DNA of 64,000 bases from Octopus vulgaris (lineage: Eukaryota): the NCBI GenBank assembly GCA_951406725.2, contig OX597816.1:152520001-152584000 (forward strand). Reading direction: 5' to 3'. The notes below the pieces were generated by a model. The model was not told the origin of the DNA. It searched no databases and saw only the letters and a program-made list of their open reading frames with translations. Position numbers and translations under genes: made by a program. Shown in pieces: positions 2,458-52,737 of this stretch; position 1 is the stretch's first letter, and the number at the start of each line of letters is the position of its first letter.

Positions 2458-2489
2458 TATATATATATAAGTCAGTTTCAAATTGAAGT

Positions 2490-2532
2490 CCACCTGAAGA
2501 TTGTCGATCAAGACAAGAAACAATTGTAGTGG
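2490..2532 (+). ncRNA. Minimal type-I hammerhead ribozyme (intact canonical core)
   Basis: ccac-CTGAAGA(2494-2500)-ttgtc-gatcaa-gacaa-GAAAC(2517-2521)-AATT-GTA-gtgg. Stem I 4 bp, stem II 5 bp, palindromic stem III, GUA cleavage triplet. Confidence 0.85.
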
Positions 2533-2714
2533 CGGTTTTTTTTTTACTTTTTATTAAAATTTTATGTATTGATTAAGTCTTTCCTTGTTTGTTTTGCAAA
2601 ATAGTGGTTTTGTCTCTAATAATATTATATAATATTTTACTATAAAATTGGATTTAATCCTAAATCTGATTTTTTCCCTGTAAATTTGGATTTATTCCCT
2701 AATATTTATTACTA

Positions 2715-2889: not shown

Positions 2890-2894
<5 letters not shown>

Positions 2895-4140
2895 GGAAAT
2901 TAAGAAAATACTGACAAAATAATTTAAGTAAGGGAGAGTGTATTTAATTAGGTGAAAGTTCTTTTTACCGGTTGCGCATTTGTTATGCTTATCAAAAGAT
3001 ATTTTTTAAAGAGAGATAGAGTTCCTTTCTGATAGATTTTTTTCTCTTATCTGACTTTATGTTGGGTTTGCTGTCTCTTATATGTGAAAAAAGAGGCTCC
3101 CGAGTTGTTTAAGATTTGCTTGGTTTCGCGCCTAAAATTTCTTGTGGACAATGGTCAATACAATTTTGATTGGTCATTATAAAGGGGTCACGTGAATGTT
3201 TGAATGGAAGTTGGTGTTGGGGTAAGAAAATAGGTTCCAGAGATGTTAAAATTTGGCTAGTGTCGCGCCTAAAATTTCTTATTGGTCATAATAAAGAGGT
3301 CACGTGGATGTGGTCATAATAGAGAGGTCACGTGAATGTTTAGAATGAATGCTGGTGTGGGTGGTGTATGGAGTTTTCGAAAATAGCGTTGTTGAAAATT
3401 CTTATTGTTCAGGCTGGTCAGTAGACGTCATGTGGATATTTTAAATAGCTTTTTAGCGCGTAGTTAAGGAGTGTATTTTCCGCTTGACTGAATTTGAGCT
3501 GGATAAGTAAATTCGTTTTGGGCAGGAAGAGCTATATGTTTGTATGTGTGCGCGTGTGTGTGTGTGTGTGTGTTTATATGTATGTTTGGGCGCGCGCGCG
3601 TGTATATATGTGTGCGTGTGTGGGTACAATTTTCAATATTTATAGTTCTGCTGGCCTTGTGCCTGTATCGGGAAGCAACGTGTTTGTGTGAAGTCAATAT
3701 TTACAGTCGTTTCCAAAAAATAGTGTTGGATGTTTTGCACCCGTATCAAATTATGTGTATGTGTGGAACCATATATTTGCGTGTGTCATGGTGTTAATAT
3801 CTGGGTAAAAGTGTGTGTAGGGTGTGTGCAGGTGTAAGTGTGTTTGTTGTGGGTTCGTGTTAGGGGGATGTGTTTAGAAGTGGTCTGTATTTATTAATAA
3901 GGTGGGATTCCATGGTTATTCGCTGGGTATGAGTGGCATTGTCTTTAAATTTGTAGAGGGGAAAGATTCTAAAATTGGGATGAAGTTGTGCGGCACAGGT
4001 ATCAATATGTGCACTAAGTGCTATTTTTCTGTATTGCTGTATTTTTATTTGGGATCTGTGGACCGTCATGCGTTGGCGGAGGCTATTTTTAGTTTGGCCT
4101 ATGTAGTGTTCATTACAGCCCGAGCAAGTTAAGACATATA
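2890..4140 (-). mobile_element. Inverted copy of the 3' end of the adjacent Penelope element (end of GIY-YIG + 3' region)
   Basis: 3842-4140 is the reverse complement of ~5260-5558, and ~2890-3265 of ~5558-5935. ORF 3860-4069(-) repeats MTVHRSQIKIQQYRK... and ends KYRPLLNTSP. Confidence 0.9.
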
Positions 4141-5540
4141 CCCTGCTAGTAACATTCGATGTAGTTAATCTTTACTCCAACATCCCCCACAACCTAGGAA
4201 TAGAAGCTATCCAATTCTGGCTGGATAATTACTCCAACGAACTCCACACCGCATCAAAAAGGAATTTATTTTAGAAGGACTCAAATTCATCTTAGAGAAT
4301 AATTTCTTCACCTTCAACAACAAATTCTACAGACAGAAATCAGGGACGGCAATGGGAACGAAAACAGCTCCCACTTACGCCAACCTAGTCATGGGATACC
4401 TGGAAATCACCCTCTATAATAACGTTCTTAACCAATTTGGCACCACTCTCCACACACACATAGAGAAGAACTGGAAGAGATATCTTGATGACTGCTTCAT
4501 CCTTTGGCCCGAAACCATCGAGAAGCTTAAAGAATTTCACACCCTTATAAATGGGCTCAACACAAACATTATTTTCACAATGGAATACAGCCCTCAACAA
4601 ATTCCCTTCCTCGACATCCTCATTAAAATTCACAACAAAAAAGTAGAAACAGACATATACTACAAGCCCACAGACTCCAAGCAATACCTCCCTTTCAATT
4701 CATGCCACCCTAGACACGTTAAAATTAACATTCCCTACAACTTAGCCAAGAGAATTTGCACTATAGTCTCCAATAAAAACACCCGTCTCTTACGTCTACA
4801 AGAACTTAAGGACACATTAACAAGCAGGGATTACCCCACGTCACTAATTGACAATGGGATCCAACGCGCCCTAAAACTCAGCACACAGGAACTTAGACGC
4901 CCTAAACCTGTTACATCGAAACCCCATACTCTACCATACATCTCTACACACAACCCCCTCAACAATGAAGCTTTTGACACCATCCTCCAGAACATTCCTG
5001 TATTAAAAAGGACCATAGAATGAACCAAATCCTCCTAACACACGAAATCATAAAGAGCAAAAGGCAACCCAAATCATTGAAAACAATCCTAACAAATGCC
5101 AAAGTACTGCCAACCACAACAACTAAACCCACAGTAAACAAATGCAATAGACCCAACTGTGGTATATGCATCAACCTAATAGAAGGTCCGGAATTCCTTT
5201 TTAAACAAGGACAACGTTTCACAGTAAAACACAACTTCACATGCGCATTAGAAAACCTAGTATATGTCTTAACTTGTTCGGGCTGTAATGAACACTACAT
5301 AGGCCAAACTAAAAATAGCCTCCGCCAACGCATGACTGTCCACAGATCCCAAATAAAAATACAGCAATACAGAAAAATAGCACTTAGTGCACATATTGAT
5401 ACCTGTGCCGCACAACTTCATCCCAATTTTAGAATCTTTCCCTCTACAAATTTAAAGACAATGCCACTCATACCCAGCGAATAACCATGGAATCCCACCT
5501 TATTAATAAATACAGACCACTTCTAAACACATCCCCCTAA
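4141..5540 (+). pseudogene. Penelope-like reverse transcriptase + GIY-YIG endonuclease, 5'-truncated, with single-base frameshifts
   Basis: LLVTFDVVNLYSNIPH, GTAMGTKTAPTYANLVM, WKRYLDDCF, PFLDILI, TDIYYKPTD..YL.FNSCHP, then CNRPNCGIC and VYVLTCSGCNEHYIGQT. Breaks near 4245, 5005 and 5440. Confidence 0.93.
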
Positions 5541-5822
5541 CACGAACCCACAACAAACGACACTAGCCAAATTTTAACATCTCTGGAACCTATTTTCTTA
5601 CCCCAACACCAACTTCCATTCAAACATTCACGTGACCCCTTTATAATGACCAATCAAAATTGTATTGACCATTGTCCACAAGAAATTTTAGGCGCGAAAC
5701 CAAGCAAATCTTAAACAACTCTGGAGCCTCTTTTTTCACATATAAGAGACAGCAAACCCAACATAAAGTCAGATAAGAGAAAAAATCTATCAGAAAGGAA
5801 CTCTATCTCTCTTAAAAAAATA

Positions 5823-5862
5823 TCTTTTGATAAGCATAACAAATGCGCAACCGGTAAAAAGA
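5823..5862 (+). ncRNA. Hammerhead-like motif with U3-A8 core and GCAA in place of GAAA (inverted twin at ~2960-3000)
   Basis: tctt-TTGATAA(5827-5833)-gcat-aacaa-atgc-GCAAC-CG-GTA-aaaaga. Palindromic stem III ACCGGT. Located at the 3' end of the PLE. Confidence 0.5.
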
Positions 5863-5970
5863 ACTTTCATCTAATTAAATACGCTCTCCCTTACTTAAAT
5901 TATTTTGTCAGCATTTTCTTCATTTCCTTTTTTCATATATCACAACTCGTGTTCCACATCTCCTTTTTTG

Positions 5971-6010
<40 letters not shown>

Positions 6011-16940: not shown

Positions 16941-17499
16941 ACACATGCACACTCACACACATTTAATTTTATTTATTGTAAGTATACCATTTTTATCTCA
17001 GCTATGATATTGAGAACTCTCAAAAAAAAAAAAACATGCTCTTTAAAACAGCCTGCAAAAATTCTATCATGTAATACGCGGTTGATAAGATATCCCCTAA
17101 AAAAACATATAAAGCATCTGAAATCCACTTAAAAATCCATTTCTGAAAATATCAAAAATAAACGAAGCTATAACAGTGCGCAGCAGGCATTGAAAAACGA
17201 TCTTCCCAAAACACTACATTTTCTGATTCAATGTTTACTACAAGCAATTTTGGGAGTTAACGAGTCCGGGTATTGATACGAAAACTGGCAGGGTAGTATG
17301 TTTCGACATACTACCCTGCCAGATAACGCTATCTTTTAAATTATATCCAAACCCAAATTCGTCGATAGCCCCTTACCGATAGGACAACAGATTATTTATC
17401 ACCTCATTATTTGTCTTCTCGTAATCTATAAAATACTCTCCATACTTATATCCTGCAGGATTGGTGAACATCTATATAAAACAATGAAAATTCTCTAGA

Positions 17500-17880
17500 G
17501 CGTGTGCCCAGTTACTACGAGACAATTGACCAGGTCTTTATTAACAAGATGGTATTGGATTGGGTGATGCTAAGGTATGAAACAAGAAGCCGTCATATGC
17601 CTGGATCAACTATAAGAAAGCTTTTGCTTAGATCCTGCATGATTGGTTTCTCAAGCTACTGGAAATATACAAATTTGATGACACCATGGTGAATTTTATT
17701 AAAATAACAGCGAAAAAATGGCAGATCGTACGGTAGTCAACACGGTGATTGTAAGCTCCACACCACACTGCAATATCTCAGTAGATGGAATATTGCAAGA
17801 AAAAAGTATTTCTGGTCCTCACTTCACCCTACGTTTGTCACCATGAAGTTGGTTAAAAAAACACACAACAATAACAGCAA
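17500..17880 (+). mobile_element. Decayed RT fragment of an RLE-type LINE
   Basis: gcctggatcaactataagaaagcttttg (AWINYKKAF), catgattgg, ctactggaaatatacaaa resemble the RT segment of the LINEs at 34-42 kb. Confidence 0.55.
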
Positions 17881-18063
17881 ATTGGTATACTGTATAGAGT
17901 AGTGGTTCTTAACCATGTTTTACCTATGGACCCCTTTGATTCCTGTTTTACTCTACTAGAACCCCCATAGTCATTCAATGTTTAAAAAATACTATTATAT
18001 TTTTACAGAGATGAACTTGAATAGCAAGTGACCTGATCTGAGATCGTGTGCTGAAGCAAAAAC

Positions 18064-18335
18064 AATTGCTACGTGAAAGGTATTTATAAGCCATCTAAAA
18101 CACACACAAAAACCATTAGATTCACTTCAACATTTAAATTTAATTTGTCAAAATATTTTCGTCGCTTTGAGGCCGTGACCCGTTCACTGACAAAATTCTG
18201 TGCTGCTTGTCAGTGAACAGGTCGCGGTCTCAAAGCGACGAAAATATTTTGACAAATTAAATTTAAATGTTGAAGTGAATCTAACGGGTTTTGTGTGTTT
18301 TTAAATGGCTTATAAACATCTTCCACACTGTAATT
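18064..18335. repeat. Hairpin with ~130-bp arms (18064-18193 / 18207-18335) and 13-nt loop
   Basis: Arms are reverse complements with scattered mismatches. The insertion (~18006-18335) is flanked by a duplicated tattatatttt. Confidence 0.93.
18207..18255 (+). ncRNA. Hammerhead-like motif with G3-C8 variant core (inverted twin at 18145-18193)
   Basis: ttgtca-GTGAACA(18213-18219)-g-gtcgc-ggtctcaaa-gcgac-GAAAATATTT-tgacaa. 6-bp stem I, 5-bp stem II, palindromic stem III AAATATTT, predicted UUU triplet. Confidence 0.6.
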
Positions 18336-19027
18336 ATTATATTTTCGTAATTAAATATTATTAGGAATTAAATATTCCTAATAATATTATTAGGAATTAA
18401 GTATTTTATGCATTGTAGAACCAATTTATTGCACATAAATTTTAACAATAAAATCTTAAATGGACACCCAAGGGTCATATGGACCCCGGTTGAGAACCAC
18501 TGATATAGAGAGAGGGTGAATAACGTTCATAGATAGACCAAGGCTAATAACCCTATATAAAAACACAGTCTGCAAGCAAGCTACATTCTATCACAACAAC
18601 CAACAACCACAACGCTAAGAAGAACAAAAGCAACTAAACCTTCCACCAAACAGCAACGAAAACGCTAAACTGAACATAAAAGCGAAAGACGAATGAAAAA
18701 TGAAAACACAGCCACAATAATTATAGTAATAACATGAATAAATAAAACAGCAAGAACAAGAGCAACAGTAACACTTCCGCAATAATTTATGATCTGCATG
18801 GCCAAGAAAGATATTGGAACTGTTTGGTGTCGCAAACGGTCTGCCATAGGTGTCTTTTCTCATTTCTTCTGTCCGTCTTAGGCTCTCAAGCTTTTTGTTG
18901 TGGAAATTTGAGTTATACACACACACACATACCGTACGCACAGATACACATGCACACATACACACAGACTCTCACATGCACACATAGACATATACATACA
19001 GACATAGGCAAAATACAAATATACTTC

Positions 19028-21536: not shown

Positions 21537-21792
21537 CAATGGTTCTCAACCGGGGTCCTTCTGGCCTTTGAGGGGTCCATACAAGATTTTGTTGTTAAAA
21601 ATTTATGTGCAATAAACTGGTTATATTCCAACAATGCACAAAATAGTTTAACTATTTTATACAATTCCTAATACTTTAATTATAAAAATATAATAGGATT
21701 TCTGAAAAATCGAATGGCTATGAGGATCCACTTGAGAAAAATAGAAATCAAAGGGGTTCTTAGGTAAAAAAAAAAATCGTTGGGAACTACTG
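21537..21792. mobile_element. hAT-type MITE (same family as 17900-18502, opposite orientation)
   Basis: caatggttctcaaccggggtcc ... gttgggaactactg. The interior is the reverse complement of the 17900 copy minus its insertion. Confidence 0.75.
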
Positions 21793-33477: not shown

Positions 33478-34120
33478 CTCTCTATATAAAATTATTTGTT
33501 TGTCTGCCTGTCTGTCTATTCCTAATGCATTCTCAAACGGCTCAACCAAATCAAATTAAATTTTACATGGTAATAATATCAGATCCTATGAGTGTCAATA
33601 TGTATTTTTTTTTTCATTTTGATTTAAACAATACAACATTGGCACTGATTCAGTATTACATATCAAAAGTGAAAAATAACATCTGTATTGTAATGTGATA
33701 TAACATTGCTTCACTTTTAGTTCTAACGCGATAAGACTGTAATATTATTTCACTTTTATTCTTTCACTTTTAATTCTAATTATATCCTAATGTGAACAAC
33801 ATTACGCATCGGCAGCGGAATGGTGTGTCAATGTATGTGTGTTGACTGACATAACGAACGGTTGCAGGCGAAACTCTTGACAAAAAACAGTGTGGTGGCA
33901 GGTCCAAGGTATATAAAAATAAACATTTACCGTTCAATCATCAGTTAATAATTATCACAGCAGTTGCAAATTTACCGTTAAATTAGCAGTTGATACATGT
34001 GCTTCTATTTGGTTAATTTGCTTATATTTGGTCAATTTATACTGCATACAAAAATAAAGAATACTACATACATACGACTACTTACAATAGAGATTACTGT
34101 ATTATTTCCTCTATGTTCAT
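33478..34120 (+). mobile_element. Possible non-autonomous Helitron/Helentron-like element
   Basis: Starts tctctatataaaa...tgtttgtctgcctgtctgtct...caaacggctcaacc...aaattttacatgg, an opening I associate with such elements. 3' end not identified. Confidence 0.35.
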
Positions 34121-35301
34121 AGAATTTCCTTGTCGTTCTGTCTAAGCTGTTTAGTTCGTCTACTGTCCATGCGATTACCCCTGCTCCATATCTAAGGAGT
34201 GAAACCGCCCGGGTGTTGATAGCTTCGAGCTTATTCCGTCCGTTTAATTTCGTCTTAAGGATCAGTCTCAGTCTGCGCAAGTACTCCACCTTAAATTTTT
34301 CTGTCATTTCTTTCTCCATCAAATTATCCATTTCCAATATCACCAAATACTTATAGCCCGTCTCTTCTATCTGTTTCATAACCTCTCCCGACGGAATCGC
34401 TAGCCCATCCATACATTTGATTTTGCCTCTCTTCAAGACTAAGACACCACACTTTCTCAGTCCGAAATCCATTCTGATATCAGCACTGAAAGTATACACC
34501 GTATCAACGAGGGAAATGTATCATTACCATAAAGTTTGAGGTCAACCATGAATAACAAATGGTTGACGTTTTGTTGGCGGCTTTTGAATACATACCCAGC
34601 TATTGCTTTCCTCAGAATCACTGACAGTGGTATCAAGCACAGTACCTCTTGGAAGATGCCCCTCCTAATTTCTAATGTTCCTAAACTTTTTCCGTATGCT
34701 GTCAGGTCCGTCCTCCAATTTGCCATACTTTTTCCAAGTAATCGCTCAACATTCGATGCAATACCAAATAGGTTCATACACTCCATAATACAAGAATATG
34801 GGATCATATCGTACGTCTTACGATAATCGATCCATGACATGGCTAAGTTACTTTTCCTCCTCTTGCAGTCTCTGAGTACAGTTTTATCTACCAGGAGTTA
34901 ATCCTTGCTACCTCTGCACTTACGTTTGCAACCCTTCTGCTTATGTGGCAGGATTCCATTTTTTTCCAGATGTTCGTACATCGACTCTGCGAGTATTCCA
35001 GTCAATAACTTCCACATAAGTGGCAAACAGGATATCGGCCTGTAATTGTCTACCGTATTGCCTTTTTCAATGTTTTTCAGGTACGAACTGTCCTACTCAA
35101 TGTCAACCACTCTGGTATTACTTGGTCGGCATTTAACAAGGTGTTGAGCTGCGCAGATTTTCGTGCATGGCATTCACCAAATCTTTTGATATAGTAGCTT
35201 TAAGCTCTATCTGGTCCCGGGGCCTTCCAGTTGCTCATTTTTTTTGCTGATTACCTTCACTTCTCTAACTAAAATGAATAGTTCTGCCTGTTTTGGACAT
35301 A

Positions 35302-36593
35302 CGAGGGGCGTTCAATAAGTAATGCCCCTGACCCAATTGCAGTTGTTTGATCTAGCTGAAATTTTGCATGTGCAATTATTTATATCTCTATAGATTAAGT
35401 GGGAAATTACAGCTCTGAACTAATTGTGGTTTCTGATTTACAGGTGTTTGAACTGAGTCAGGTGTGAAATGGAGCCTGTTGAGTGTCGAGCAGGGATCCG
35501 GTTTTTGTATTTGAAAGGACGCACACCACGGGAAACTTTTGATGAAATGAAAGTAACTTATGGTGATGATGCCCCATCCTATGACCTTGTAAAACGCTGG
35601 CATCGTGAATTCAAACTTGGTCGGAATTCTGTGGAAACAGCTCCCAGATCTAGTCGCCCCCCTTCTGCCATTGATGAGGCATCTGTCCGTCAAGTTGAGG
35701 CTGCCATTTTGGAAGATCGACGCATAACTATTCGCCAAATAGTCCATGAAGTCAAGATTAGTACCGGGTCTGTGGAAACTATCATTCATGACCATTTACA
35801 TATGCAAAAGGTGTCTGCCAGATGGATTCCCAGGTTGCTCATACCTTTCCAGAAGCAAGAACGCGTCGAATGCTCGAGGATAAATTTGGAGATGTGCCAA
35901 GAAGATGAGTCAAAATTTTTCAAAAGACTGATTACACAGGATGAAACCTGGGTCCATCACTATGATCCAGAGACCAAAGCCCAGTCAATGCAGTGGAAGC
36001 GCCGTGACTCACCTCCTCCAAAGAAGGCAAGGGTGCAGCCCTCCGCTGGCAAGGTCACGCTCACAGTCTTCTGGGACCAGGACGGAGTAGTGATGACAGA
36101 TTTTCTGGCAAAGGGTACCACAATTACAGGAGCCTATTATGCTTCACTTTTGAGGAAATTAAGAGAAGCTATCAAAATCAAGAGGCGGGGCAAGATCAGC
36201 AAAGGCATCCTCCTCCTGCAGGACAACGCTCCGGTCCACAACTCGCGTGTCGCCAGATCAAAAGCACAGGCGTGCGGCTATGAACTTCTCCCCCATCCCC
36301 CTACTCTCCTGACCTTGCACCCTCTGATTTTCACCTCTTCCCACCCATGAAGTTGTTTTTGAAAGGAAAGCGTTTACCAGATGATGCAGCCTTGATTTCT
36401 AAAGTCACGTCGTGGTTGGAGGACCAAGCTGGGGTCTTCTACAAAAACGGTATCCAGAGCTGCATCAAACGATGGGAGAAATGCGTAACTCTGGGTGGTT
36501 CCTATGTAGAAAAAGACTAATAACTGTGCCGAGTTTTGTTGCTCTACTACTATGGGAAGTGGGTCAGGGGCATTACTTATTGAACGCCCCTCG
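35302..36593 (+). mobile_element. Full-length mariner DNA transposon (1292 bp)
   Basis: Perfect 34-bp TIRs cgaggggcgttcaataagtaatgcccctgaccca (35302-35335 / 36560-36593). TA target duplication on both sides. Confidence 0.97.
35469..36520 (+). CDS. Mariner DD34D transposase; one apparent 1-nt deletion in a C-run at ~36297-36301
   Basis: HTH N-terminus, WIPRLL, ITQDETW, LLQDNAPVH. After the shift the frame reads YSPDLAPSDFHLF...KRWEKCVTLGGSYVEKD-TAA(36520). Confidence 0.93.
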
Positions 36594-39984: not shown

Positions 39985-40524
39985 ATTATTATTATTCAGT
40001 AGTTTTATTTTTATTTTTATAGCGTGCTTTCACTTCACTACCGAGCGCAGCTCTGTGTGCCTTGGGTATGTGCTGTGATTTGTTGTGATGCTCTGATGGT
40101 TATTGTATGGAAAGTGTTCTGCGTAGGATGTGTGCAGTACCTAGTAGTGCAATTTTCTGTATGTTATATGTGTTTGTAAGTCCTGGTGTTTTTGTTATGT
40201 ATTTGTCTGAATATTTTTTTATCATGCCTAATGCACCTACTATGATAGGAATTGTTTCTATTTTCAGATTCCACATTCTAGTTACCTCTATTTCCAGGTC
40301 TTTGTATTTTGAGAGTTTCTCCATTTCTTTTAGAGACACGTTGTCATCAGCCGGTATTGATACATCAATTAGAAAGCATTTTTTTTCTTCATGGTCTCTG
40401 ACAACTATATCTGGTCTGTTGGACTTAATTTCTCCATCTGTGTGTATCGGCATATCCCAGAGTATGGTTGCTTTCTCGTTTTCTGTGACCTTTTCTGGTG
40501 TGTGCCTATACCATCTTTTTTCTG

Positions 40525-40528
<4 letters not shown>
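39985..40528 (-). mobile_element. RLE-type LINE 3' end, young copy with open endonuclease frame (40100-40528)
   Basis: ILWDMPIHTDGEIKSNRPDIVVRDHEEKKCFLIDVSIP...EKLSKYKDL...IPIIVGALG...IQKIALLGTAHILRR. (TAA)n on both sides. Confidence 0.92.
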
Positions 40529-40604
<76 letters not shown>

Positions 40605-40607
40605 ACA

Positions 40608-40683
<76 letters not shown>

Positions 40684-40697
40684 TTATTATTATTATT

Positions 40698-42202
40698 GTC
40701 TTAGCACAGCTTCTAACACTAGAGATGTACTACGGTGTCAACTAAGGTAATACCCCTTATTTTTCGAGCAGAATCCGGAGTATTCGGGCGGCTCCAAGCA
40801 GTGCTGTTTTCTGCAAGAGCTCCACCCTTTTGCACCCCCTATTTGTTCCATGTACTTCTCAAGATTTTTATTCACCGTTTCCAGGGCTCCGACATTTATC
40901 GGTACTATTACCACCTTTTTCAACGACCGCAACTTCTTAACCTCCCAAGCTAAACTGTTATATCGACTTTTCTTTCTTCCATATCACATACCTTGTCAGC
41001 TGGGCATGCTATATCTATGATCCAGGATCGTTGCTTTCTTTCCCAATTAACACTATGTCTGGCTTCCTATTCTCTATCTCATGGTCGCACGGCATCATAA
41101 AATCCCATAGGATTTTGCATTATCCTTTTCGAAGATGCCTTCGAGTTTATGTCCGCACCACCTTTTTGCTCTGTCAAGTTCATATTTATTGCAAAGTGTC
41201 CAATGGACAATCCTTACTATATTGTCATGACGTCTCTTATATTCTTTATGGGCTAGTGGCGTACATTGATTGGTAATATGCCATACGGTTTTGTCCACAA
41301 ATTCTGCACTTATCACTTACCGATGTGTTGTTTATTCTGTATTTGATGTAATTGGTTCTTAAAGCTTGCACTTGGGTTGCACAGATTAGAGCCTGGTTTT
41401 AAAACGCTTTTAGTTATCCACAGACATATTTTTTCTCTGTCTATCTTATCTTCAACGTCCCTATGAAGCTGTCTATGCATTCTTTTCTTTATCCGCCTAT
41501 TTTTAGTTTCATTCATTCTCAAGTGCTTGCACAGTGCCTTATCTTTGCAATCTTCCATTCTACAAAAGCCTGACTTTCTTACTTCAAATGATAGCGGTTC
41601 TGTCGCATTTTTTGCATACCATGCTACGTTGTCTTCTTCTGTTCTAATGCTGTGTTCGTATCCAATCAGTCCTCTTACCCCTCGTTTTCTTAGTACATAC
41701 AGTCTGTCTGTATCACATTTTGGGTGGAGTATCCCATATCTAGTCAGCAACTTTCTTGTCTTTCTGTTTAAGCTGTTTAGTTCATCTACTGTCCATGCGA
41801 TTACCCCTGCTCCATATCTAAGGAGTGAAACTGCCCAGGTGCTGACAGCTTCAATCTTATTCCGTCTGTTTAATTTCGACTTAAGGATCAGTCACAGTCT
41901 GTGCAAGTACTCCACCTTAAATTTTTCTGTAATTTTTTCTCCATTAATTTATCCATTTCCAATATCCCCAAATACTTATAGCCCGTCTCTTCTATCTGCT
42001 TCATTGTCTCCCCGACGGTATCGCTAGTCCGACCATACATTTGATTTTGCTTCTCTTCAAGACTAACACACCATACTGTTTCAGTCCAAACTCCATTCCG
42101 ATATCAGCACTGAAAGTATACACCGTATCAACGAGGAAACTGACTTTGGATTCATCTTTACCACAAAGTTTGAGGTTATCCATAAATAACAAGTGGTTGA
42201 CT
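40698..42202 (-). mobile_element. RLE-type LINE 3' half, decayed, bounded by (TAA)n
   Basis: HLLFMDNLKL, DIGMEFGLKQ, HPKCDTDRLYVLRKRGVRGL, YKRRHDNI, RKPDIV, VVIVPINVGAL. Confidence 0.88.
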
Positions 42203-52594: not shown

Positions 52595-52737
52595 TTATAT
52601 ATAAGAGTTACAGAATGGAGTATAGGAAATCCGGGCTACATATGTTTCATAGCGAGTGGAACCTCAGAAGAGGTAAAACCCAGGTGAGATGCATACCACC
52701 GCTACTCTTCAGGCCAAGGACATATAAATATATATAT

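What the first reader, a model, noticed from the sequence alone, without database searches (positions are those of the whole stretch)
18006..18335. Miniature fold-back insertion carrying a G3-C8 hammerhead variant, nested in a hAT MITE
Seen: a 272-bp hairpin whose innermost ~49 bp per arm form ttgtca-GTGAACA-g-gtcgc-loop-gcgac-GAAAATATTT-tgacaa. GUGAACA is CUGANGA with positions 3 and 8 swapped. The insertion is flanked by a tattatatttt duplication and is absent from the sister MITE at 21537. With the C3-G8 and U3-A8 motifs, three of the four possible Watson-Crick 3-8 pairs occur in one 64-kb window. Inference: a separate PLE-related family with a natural G3-C8 ribozyme. The long hairpin is also a plausible ADAR or Dicer substrate.
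Basis: partly seen in the sequence, partly recalled or inferred. Interest (0 to 1): 0.75.

Follow-up and report, generated by a model that had tools for sequence, protein, structure and literature searches.

The report
Swapped-core hammerhead at Penelope element end
The hairpin is two short copies of the tail end of a Penelope-type jumping gene lying head to head, and that end carries a predicted self-cutting RNA motif with two paired core letters swapped, a natural form not found in the papers searched, whose cutting is untested.

Summary
This is not a fold-back family. It is two 5'-truncated copies of a ~205-nt unit joined head to head inside an 11-bp duplication. The unit is the 3' end of a young RT/GIY-YIG Penelope-like element found here and has thousands of copies (6,746 exact 17-mers). 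Of 47 pairs, 40 join one tailed and one tailless arm, and 4 of 12 young pairs join two subfamilies, pointing to two RNA templates per insertion. G3-C8 is the family state (79 and 74 of 84 arms) and appears in four other organisms. An older homologous family has the same stems with C3-G8, U3-G8, U3-A8 or C3-A8. Against a needed ribozyme: mismatched cores also amplified, no copy ends mark the cut, and the hairpin buries the motif. I found G3-C8 in print only as a lab mutant; Lünse 2017 was unreadable. The scan already noted G3-C8 hammerheads elsewhere in this genome. Verdict: new variant of a known kind; cleavage untested.

The parts
17900..18502 (.). Host hAT-type MITE (8-bp flank duplication 17892-17899 / 18503-18510); only the landing site
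17993..18003 (+). Left copy of the 11-bp AT-rich target-site duplication
   Evidence: family TSDs 10-15 nt
18003..18206 (-). Arm 1: unit positions 4-207, ending in the optional tail; 90% identical to reference copy L148
18003..18063 (-). About 60-nt optional tail between the two fixed 3' ends (inferred reverse-transcription start sites)
   Evidence: bimodal 3' ends; tail concept from PMC11167929 and PMC8557442
18145..18193 (-). Damaged hammerhead motif of arm 1 (G3 18187, C8 18182, A9G, one stem II mismatch)
18207..18334 (+). Arm 2: unit positions 17 to about 144, 5'-truncated at stem I, no tail; 95% identical to L148
18207..18255 (+). Intact minimal type I hammerhead motif with G3 (18213) and C8 (18218); predicted cut after 18249
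   Evidence: features compared with PMC4209133
18335..18345 (+). Right copy of the target-site duplication

Best explanation
The 330-bp insertion is two 5'-truncated copies of the 3' end of an RT-endonuclease Penelope-like retroelement, joined head to head inside an 11-bp duplication and likely made in one event by priming on both cut DNA strands from two RNA molecules; that 3' end carries a minimal hammerhead fold with a family-wide G3-C8 core, which is predicted to cleave only weakly and is probably not needed for each jump. Shown: unit boundaries, two fixed 3' ends, ragged 5' ends, TSDs, (TA)n targets, attachment to a PLE reading frame, mixed-subfamily pairs, the G3-C8 state and its C3-G8 relatives. 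Inferred: the element's protein nicks both strands of an AT-rich site about 10-15 nt apart; one strand primes at the tail end of one RNA, the other at the inner site of a second RNA; both cDNAs stop early and their 5' ends are joined, which gives the hairpin as a by-product. Inferred for the ribozyme: long-term selection keeps the fold (pairs are restored over time), cleavage is slow and needs a dimer or the protein, and uncut RNA is the template for insertion. The architecture alone I put at about 0.95; the confidence given covers the whole statement.
For: [quoted passage not shown] In 10 of 20 further loci the unit lies about 1 kb behind that frame in the same sense, at 98-99.5% identity to young short copies. 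Architecture in 86 insertions picked by a 22-mer outside the ribozyme: 47 head-to-head pairs, 39 singles, no tail-to-tail and no full tandem; 3' ends at 141-150 or 196-205, 5' ends ragged; 40 of 47 pairs have one tailed and one tailless arm; TSDs of 10-15 nt at 15 of 27 non-TA sites versus 22 of 702 mismatched flanks; 58 of 85 at (TA)n. A second autonomous PLE here shows the same one-tail layout. Two templates: 4 of 12 young pairs carry different three-change loop II haplotypes, two with each arrangement (about 5 expected from random draws). PMC11167929 reports both strands cut and extended, two internal start sites, a predicted dimer, and insertion unaffected by ribozyme mutants. Fold kept: 10 subfamily-level variable columns, 5 in loop II, 1 in stem I keeping a U-G pair, 4 downstream, none in core or stems II/III; family B is homologous outside the motif (score 70, 0 of 300 shuffles) and differs by G3-C8 versus C3-G8 and A15.2-U16.2 versus G15.2-C16.2. 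Dispensable: C3-A8 in 15 of 19 copies of one B sub-lineage; G3-G8 in 35 of 100 listed of 401 non-C8 copies, a transversion excess (p 0.0016), present in both arms of 4 of 8 pairs.
Against: No full-length parent with its 5' end was found (0 of the 29 long loci), so the unit is not shown to recur in front of the frame as a pseudo-LTR. The parent protein itself has no Pfam hit. Mixed pairs could come from gene conversion of one arm; the count is small (4 of 12), and arms share rare variants more than unrelated copies should (22 shared, 313 one-sided), so some pairs come from one source or were homogenised. 65 of the arms reach unit positions 1-10 and most stop there, so many short copies may come from a short RNA of their own, that is a semi-independent non-autonomous form. 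Family B was first found with a pattern that fixed the stems, so stem identity is partly circular. No cleavage assay exists; 'weak' rests on engineered mutants in other ribozymes.
Confidence: 0.6

Rival explanations
1. Same PLE origin, but the G3-C8 hammerhead is an efficient ribozyme needed to process the element's RNA, and the double swap is strict compensation.
For: Both partners changed together between families A and B with the rest of the core kept; G3-C8 held in four other organisms and in 27 of 30 long copies; C3G/G8C partly restores cleavage in a PLE ribozyme (PMC11167929) and in general (PMC8495972).
Against: Sub-lineages with C3-A8 and U3-G8 amplified and G3-G8 was template-borne. 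Of 39 arms whose match begins at unit positions 30-115, only 2 begin at the predicted cut and both are internal junctions. No pile-up of RNA ends in three raw RNA runs (fragmented libraries, weak test). Full arms keep the sequence upstream of the cut, so templates were uncut.
Confidence: 0.17
2. Same PLE origin, but the motif is a catalytically dead relic or a structural protein-binding element; positions 3 and 8 drift and G3-C8 is a chance end point.
For: Six different 3/8 states occur in the lineage, two of them mismatches; G8C alone lowers rates about 1e5-fold (PMC8495972), so every path between C3-G8 and G3-C8 passes through a near-dead step that must have been mobile; among copies the core is no better conserved than neutral parts of the unit.
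Against: The dominant, youngest and ORF-linked state is a Watson-Crick pair; the other core letters, the extra base before G10.1, G10.1-C11.1 and the palindromic stem III persist while the rest of the unit diverged to the edge of detection.
Confidence: 0.2
3. A separate miniature fold-back or TIR (MITE-like) element whose long inverted arms are copied as one piece.
For: Near-perfect hairpin; the 30 best DNA matches are all hairpins; a few copies are full palindromes.
Against: Best matches are biased to hairpins; 39 of 86 unbiased insertions are single arms; centre junctions differ in every pair; ends are asymmetric; TSD length varies (10-15 nt); the unit is joined to an RT frame.
Confidence: 0.03

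Closest known systems
Minimal type I hammerheads of metazoan Penelope-like elements (Cervera and de la Pena 2014, PMC4209133; read: main text parts 1-2 of 4, supplement file 2 parts 1-2 of 3)
   Same: Type I order, extra base between 9 and 10.1, G10.1-C11.1, short palindromic stem III, U17 common, thousands of scattered truncated copies, pairs on opposite strands, place near the 3' end of a PLE.
   Different: Core pair is G3-C8. Their 56 listed motifs show C3-G8, U3-A8 and one U3-G8, none G3-C8, and a CUGANGA descriptor would miss this family.
Poseidon element of Anolis carolinensis, PAc (Frangieh et al. 2024, PMC11167929; read: parts 1-2 of 4)
   Same: AT-rich targets, two reverse-transcription start sites defining an optional tail, both strands cut and extended in vitro, ribozyme upstream of the start sites and dispensable for insertion in vitro.
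   Different: PAc has C3-G8 (G3-C8 only engineered); here the tail is about 60 nt, the protein has a CX3CX2C linker, and genomic pairs give evidence for two RNA templates, which the parts I read do not address.
Neptune/Nematis-type EN+ PLEs (Craig et al. 2021, PMC8557442; read: passages)
   Same: C-terminal GIY-YIG, CX2-5CxxC linker, (TA)n bias, inverted 5'-truncated copy at the 5' end, tail often at one end only.
   Different: Tail about 60 nt rather than 30-40; no partial tandem with the ORF start seen; clade not assigned by a tree.
Non-LTR retrozymes (Li, Clavereau, Pollet, bioRxiv 10.64898/2026.07.22.740005; read: abstract, results part 1 of 2)
   Same: Short hammerhead-bearing units related to PLE ends, high copy number.
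   Different: Retrozymes are head-to-tail tandem arrays; this family is single or head-to-head, and is attached to its own coding parent.

Membership tests
EN+ Penelope-like element | RT plus C-terminal GIY-YIG endonuclease in one frame | tested here: met
   671-aa open frame upstream of the unit; profile match to a PLE protein 99.5%, E 9e-23 across RT and EN; Pfam hits only in homologues
EN+ Penelope-like element | Fixed 3' ends with optional tail, ragged 5' truncation | tested here: met
EN+ Penelope-like element | Inverted 5'-truncated copy at the 5' end | tested here: met
   47 of 86 insertions; long pairs 1.7-5 kb
EN+ Penelope-like element | Partial tandem giving a pseudo-LTR in front of the ORF | tested here: inconclusive
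   partial UTR tandems seen (L344, L349) but no copy with the ORF start among 29 long loci
EN+ Penelope-like element | AT-rich or (TA)n targets with variable TSD | tested here: met
Neptune or Nematis clade | Placement in the RT tree | not tested
   only the CX3CX2C linker was seen; no reference set on hand
PLE minimal type I hammerhead | Stems I and II around the core, extra base before G10.1-C11.1, palindromic stem III, NUH site | tested here: met
   against PMC4209133
PLE minimal type I hammerhead | Core CUGANGA (C3-G8) or the known U3-A8 variant | tested here: not met
   G3 in 79 and C8 in 74 of 84 arms; the Watson-Crick pair is kept in swapped form
PLE minimal type I hammerhead | Covariation supporting the fold | tested here: met
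   3-8 and 15.2-16.2 change together between families A and B; subfamily changes avoid core and stems; caveat: mismatched 3/8 sub-lineages
PLE minimal type I hammerhead | Self-cleavage after position 17 | not testable with these tools
   indirect signs absent: copy 5' ends, RNA ends
TIR MITE / fold-back DNA transposon | Symmetric terminal inverted repeats and fixed-length TSD in all copies | tested here: not met
   39 of 86 single arms, asymmetric ends, TSD 10-15 nt
Non-LTR retrozyme | Head-to-tail tandem units | tested here: not met
   0 of 86 insertions with two full units in tandem
Non-LTR retrozyme | Circular RNA of unit length | not tested
   no suitable library; one search lists no go-back joint among the joints shown (19 not shown)

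The most novel reading that the evidence does not exclude
An active Penelope-like lineage uses a natural G3-C8 hammerhead that really cleaves (as a dimer or with its own protein), the genome preserves the steps by which a catalytic-core pair was inverted (C-G, U-G, U-A, C-A, G-G, G-C), and its thousands of head-to-head inserts are a genomic record of a two-RNA, both-strand insertion by a dimeric PLE complex in which the two halves are forced to use different start sites.
Probability: 0.35. Interest if true: 0.65.

Novelty: new variant of a known kind. Interest (0 to 1): 0.45.

Why it matters
Standard hammerhead searches demand C3-G8 or U3-A8, so a family with thousands of copies and a coding parent is invisible to them (no Rfam hit here); PLE ribozyme counts are probably too low. 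The lineage offers natural alleles for the open question of what PLE hammerheads do: matched, wobble and mismatched 3/8 cores in nearly the same stems, with copy numbers as a fitness read-out. The pairs also give a cheap genomic test of how PLE inverted ends arise: strict one-tail asymmetry (40 of 42 classifiable pairs, p 4e-10) and mixed-subfamily arms fit two RNAs on one nicked site. Each pair adds a long RNA duplex to host transcripts and is a likely editing substrate. None of this is a new class of element or ribozyme.

Tried and rejected
Rfam scan of the window at E up to 1: no hammerhead family, only microsatellite noise. G3-G8 as one basal subfamily: rejected, the 27 copies are spread over several backgrounds, so no order of steps is claimed. 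The two other autonomous PLEs (window family and a second young family) as parent: rejected, no 3' similarity above shuffles. 5' ends at the predicted cut: none convincing. tRNA-SINE on the opposite strand: a B-box-like word occurs only in the young subfamily and the truncation polarity points the other way. Extra G at the preferred 5' stop as a cap trace, or an intron end there (branch-point, pyrimidine tract, AG): seen but confounded by flanks and inverted arms; not claimed. Dimer co-fold gave swapped stems I/II but not the stem III duplex: no support either way. No holder of the stretch is on record as RNA in the index. Literature: searches for natural G3-C8 found it only as an engineered variant (PMC11167929, PMC8495972, PMC3884650 passage); searches for the element type found no description; PMC13282606 has no mention of ribozymes in its main text. 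Lünse et al. 2017, the most relevant paper on PLE hammerhead variants, is not held, supplement file 1 of PMC4209133 was not searched and bioRxiv supplements were not seen; any of these may list a G3-C8 variant. PMC5785220 was a wrongly recalled id (unrelated paper, outline only). Small-RNA mapping was not done.

Full report
1. Observation. The motif, hairpin, duplication and empty sister MITE are all in the sequence. The intact motif is on the plus strand at 18207-18255 with G3 at 18213 and C8 at 18218. Its mirror on the minus strand is damaged (A9G and one stem II mismatch). Folded as one RNA, the insertion forms a -177 kcal/mol hairpin in which the ribozyme stems have pairing probability 0; in the right arm alone stem II reaches 0.85 and stem I about 0.12. 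Rfam has no hammerhead hit in the window. The genome is a 2.8-Gb animal assembly.

2. The repeat unit is a monomer. A 17-mer across the core has 6,746 exact matches against 1 for the reversed control. To avoid choosing copies by the core I used a 22-mer downstream of it (6,310 matches) and fetched 98 of the first 100 listed sites, all from the first 49 Mb of contig C1, giving 86 insertions after dropping 4 duplicate loci. Of these 47 are head-to-head pairs and 39 single arms; none is tail to tail or a full tandem. 3' ends fall in two groups, unit positions 141-150 and 196-205; 5' ends are ragged, with a preferred stop at positions 1-10. In 40 of 47 pairs one arm has the ~60-nt tail and the other lacks it, 1 pair has two tails, 1 none, 5 are unclassified (40 of 42, p 4e-10). 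58 of 85 sites touch (TA)n; 15 of the other 27 have a 10-15-nt duplication, against 22 of 702 mismatched flank pairs. This is the layout described for endonuclease-bearing PLEs (PMC8557442 passages), and the polarity puts the hammerhead on the template strand.

3. The coding parent. Some copies share sequence upstream of the preferred stop; that extension has 734 exact matches. [quoted passage not shown] The protein has no Pfam hit itself, 201 database relatives at E 1e-10 or better, weak RVT_1 and GIY-YIG hits in 7 and 5 of 41 aligned members, and a profile match to another PLE of this genome at 99.5%, E 9e-23, 585 columns. In 10 of 20 further loci chosen for the young extension, the unit follows this frame at about 1 kb in the same sense, 98-99.5% identical to young short copies; the other 10 show no part of the frame. 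Long copies also lie head to head with one tail. No copy with the ORF start was found in these 29 loci, so a pseudo-LTR in front of the ORF is not shown. Two other autonomous PLE families were excluded as parent.

4. How the hairpin arises (inferred). Among 78 pairs, age markers agree between arms, but 4 of 12 young pairs carry different loop II haplotypes (two substitutions and an indel), twice with the older type on the tailed arm and twice on the tailless arm; about 5 are expected from random draws within the young pool. A fixed fold-back donor cannot give this. It fits the in vitro behaviour of PAc: both strands cut and extended, two internal start sites, predicted dimer (PMC11167929). Against: small numbers, possible gene conversion, and 22 rare variants shared between arms versus 313 one-sided. 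A search for twin priming in Penelope elements found no paper on it.

5. G3-C8 is the family state. In 84 arms G3 is found 79 times and C8 74 times; 27 of 30 long copies have both. Contigs of four other organisms hold the family with C8 at 97-99% of depth and no other letter listed at G3 above 3%. The motif has the extra base before G10.1, G10.1-C11.1 and the palindromic stem III typical of PLE minimal hammerheads, and U17 is common among those (PMC4209133). Subfamily-level changes avoid the core and keep the stems (10 columns: 5 loop II, 1 wobble-keeping in stem I, 4 downstream).

6. Relatives. A pattern freeing positions 3, 7 and 8 found older families with the same stems and G8. Family B (1,703 first-look candidates, about 78% identity) is homologous outside the motif (0 of 300 shuffles; 7.6 bits versus -0.7 for the best of 500 shuffles), has two 3' ends at a like spacing, a majority core CUGAAGA and G15.2-C16.2 where family A has A-U. 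In 29 B copies position 3 is never G. This supports a natural inversion of the core pair, with C3-G8 as the likely older state. Stem identity is partly circular because the first pattern fixed it.

7. Evidence against a strictly needed ribozyme. One B sub-lineage has C3-A8 in 15 of 19 matches; another has U3-G8 in 18, U3-A8 in 7, C3-G8 in 5 and C3-A8 in 3 of 36 (tallied by hand). In family A, G8 makes up 35 of the first 100 of 401 non-C8 copies, more than the mirror transversion at position 3 (p 0.0016; tallied by hand), and sits in both arms of 4 of 8 readable pairs, so mismatched RNAs probably served as templates. Of 39 truncated arms only 2 begin at the predicted cut, both at internal junctions. 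Three raw RNA runs show no pile-up of ends (fragmented libraries). PAc ribozyme mutants insert normally in vitro and the double mutant is only partly active.

8. Expression and editing. 1,852, 1,422 and 1,320 reads from three RNA runs of one study lie on the unit, on both strands; 92% carry C8. Nine listed A-to-G or T-to-C sites reach 7-25% in RNA but 0-2% in G000 copies; 7 of 9 have a 5' U and none a 5' G or C, against 24 of 126 5' U overall, which fits the recalled ADAR preference. But several other change types are also in excess, only 40 of 95 sites were shown, and no DNA of the same individual was available, so this is a hint at family level, not proof, and says nothing on this copy.

9. 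Comparison and novelty. It works like, and by tested features is, the 3' end of an EN+ PLE; the motif is built like a PLE minimal hammerhead but fails the core-sequence test. Natural U3-A8 is in print (PMC3088659 passage; PMC4209133); G3-C8 I found only as an engineered variant in searches, with Lünse 2017 unseen. Earlier notes of this scan, seen only after I had reached this reading, report G3-C8 hammerheads elsewhere in this genome; they are not independent support. Verdict: new variant of a known kind, interest 0.45.

Noticed in passing
window 4229-5975 (+) and 2890-3260 (-): A PLE (RT, GIY-YIG) with an inverted copy of its own 3' end. Its hammerhead-like motif has U3-A8 and GCAA in place of GAAA in 34 of 35 genomic matches; the family is young with 784-aa open frames. 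A family-wide change at position 13 is odd for a working hammerhead.
   Followed up: partly
L290-L293, L296: A second young autonomous PLE family with a 446-aa and a 784-aa frame, 4.4-kb tandems, a U3-A8 GAAA hammerhead and an optional ~40-nt tail that runs on into the first frame.
   Followed up: partly
window 2486-2536 (+): Canonical C3-G8 minimal hammerhead with palindromic stem III, on the strand opposite a GIY-YIG fragment (1955-2572, -); its element was not traced.
   Followed up: no
L341 minus strand, just upstream of the unit; 734 genomic matches: The preferred 5' stop of short copies coincides with a branch-point-like word, pyrimidine tract and AG; could be an intron end or a transcription start giving a short RNA.
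   Followed up: partly
L151, L155, L156, L158-L160, L167: A third related family with C3-G8, a different loop II and a wobble-palindromic stem III, also lying head to head.
   Followed up: partly
L337: Three diverged units (80%) at a 3.4-kb period inside a tandem duplication with no similarity to the parent frame.
   Followed up: partly
window 17400-17880: The host MITE appears to sit in a decayed non-LTR reverse-transcriptase remnant (resemblance recalled from memory, not tested); similar remnants at 34032-34897 and 40100-41891.
   Followed up: no
window 35457-36350 (+): Mariner-type transposase frame of 297 aa (Transposase_1, HTH_48).
   Followed up: no
window 52640-52720 (-): Loose C3-G8 hammerhead candidate with a long stem II region.
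   Followed up: no
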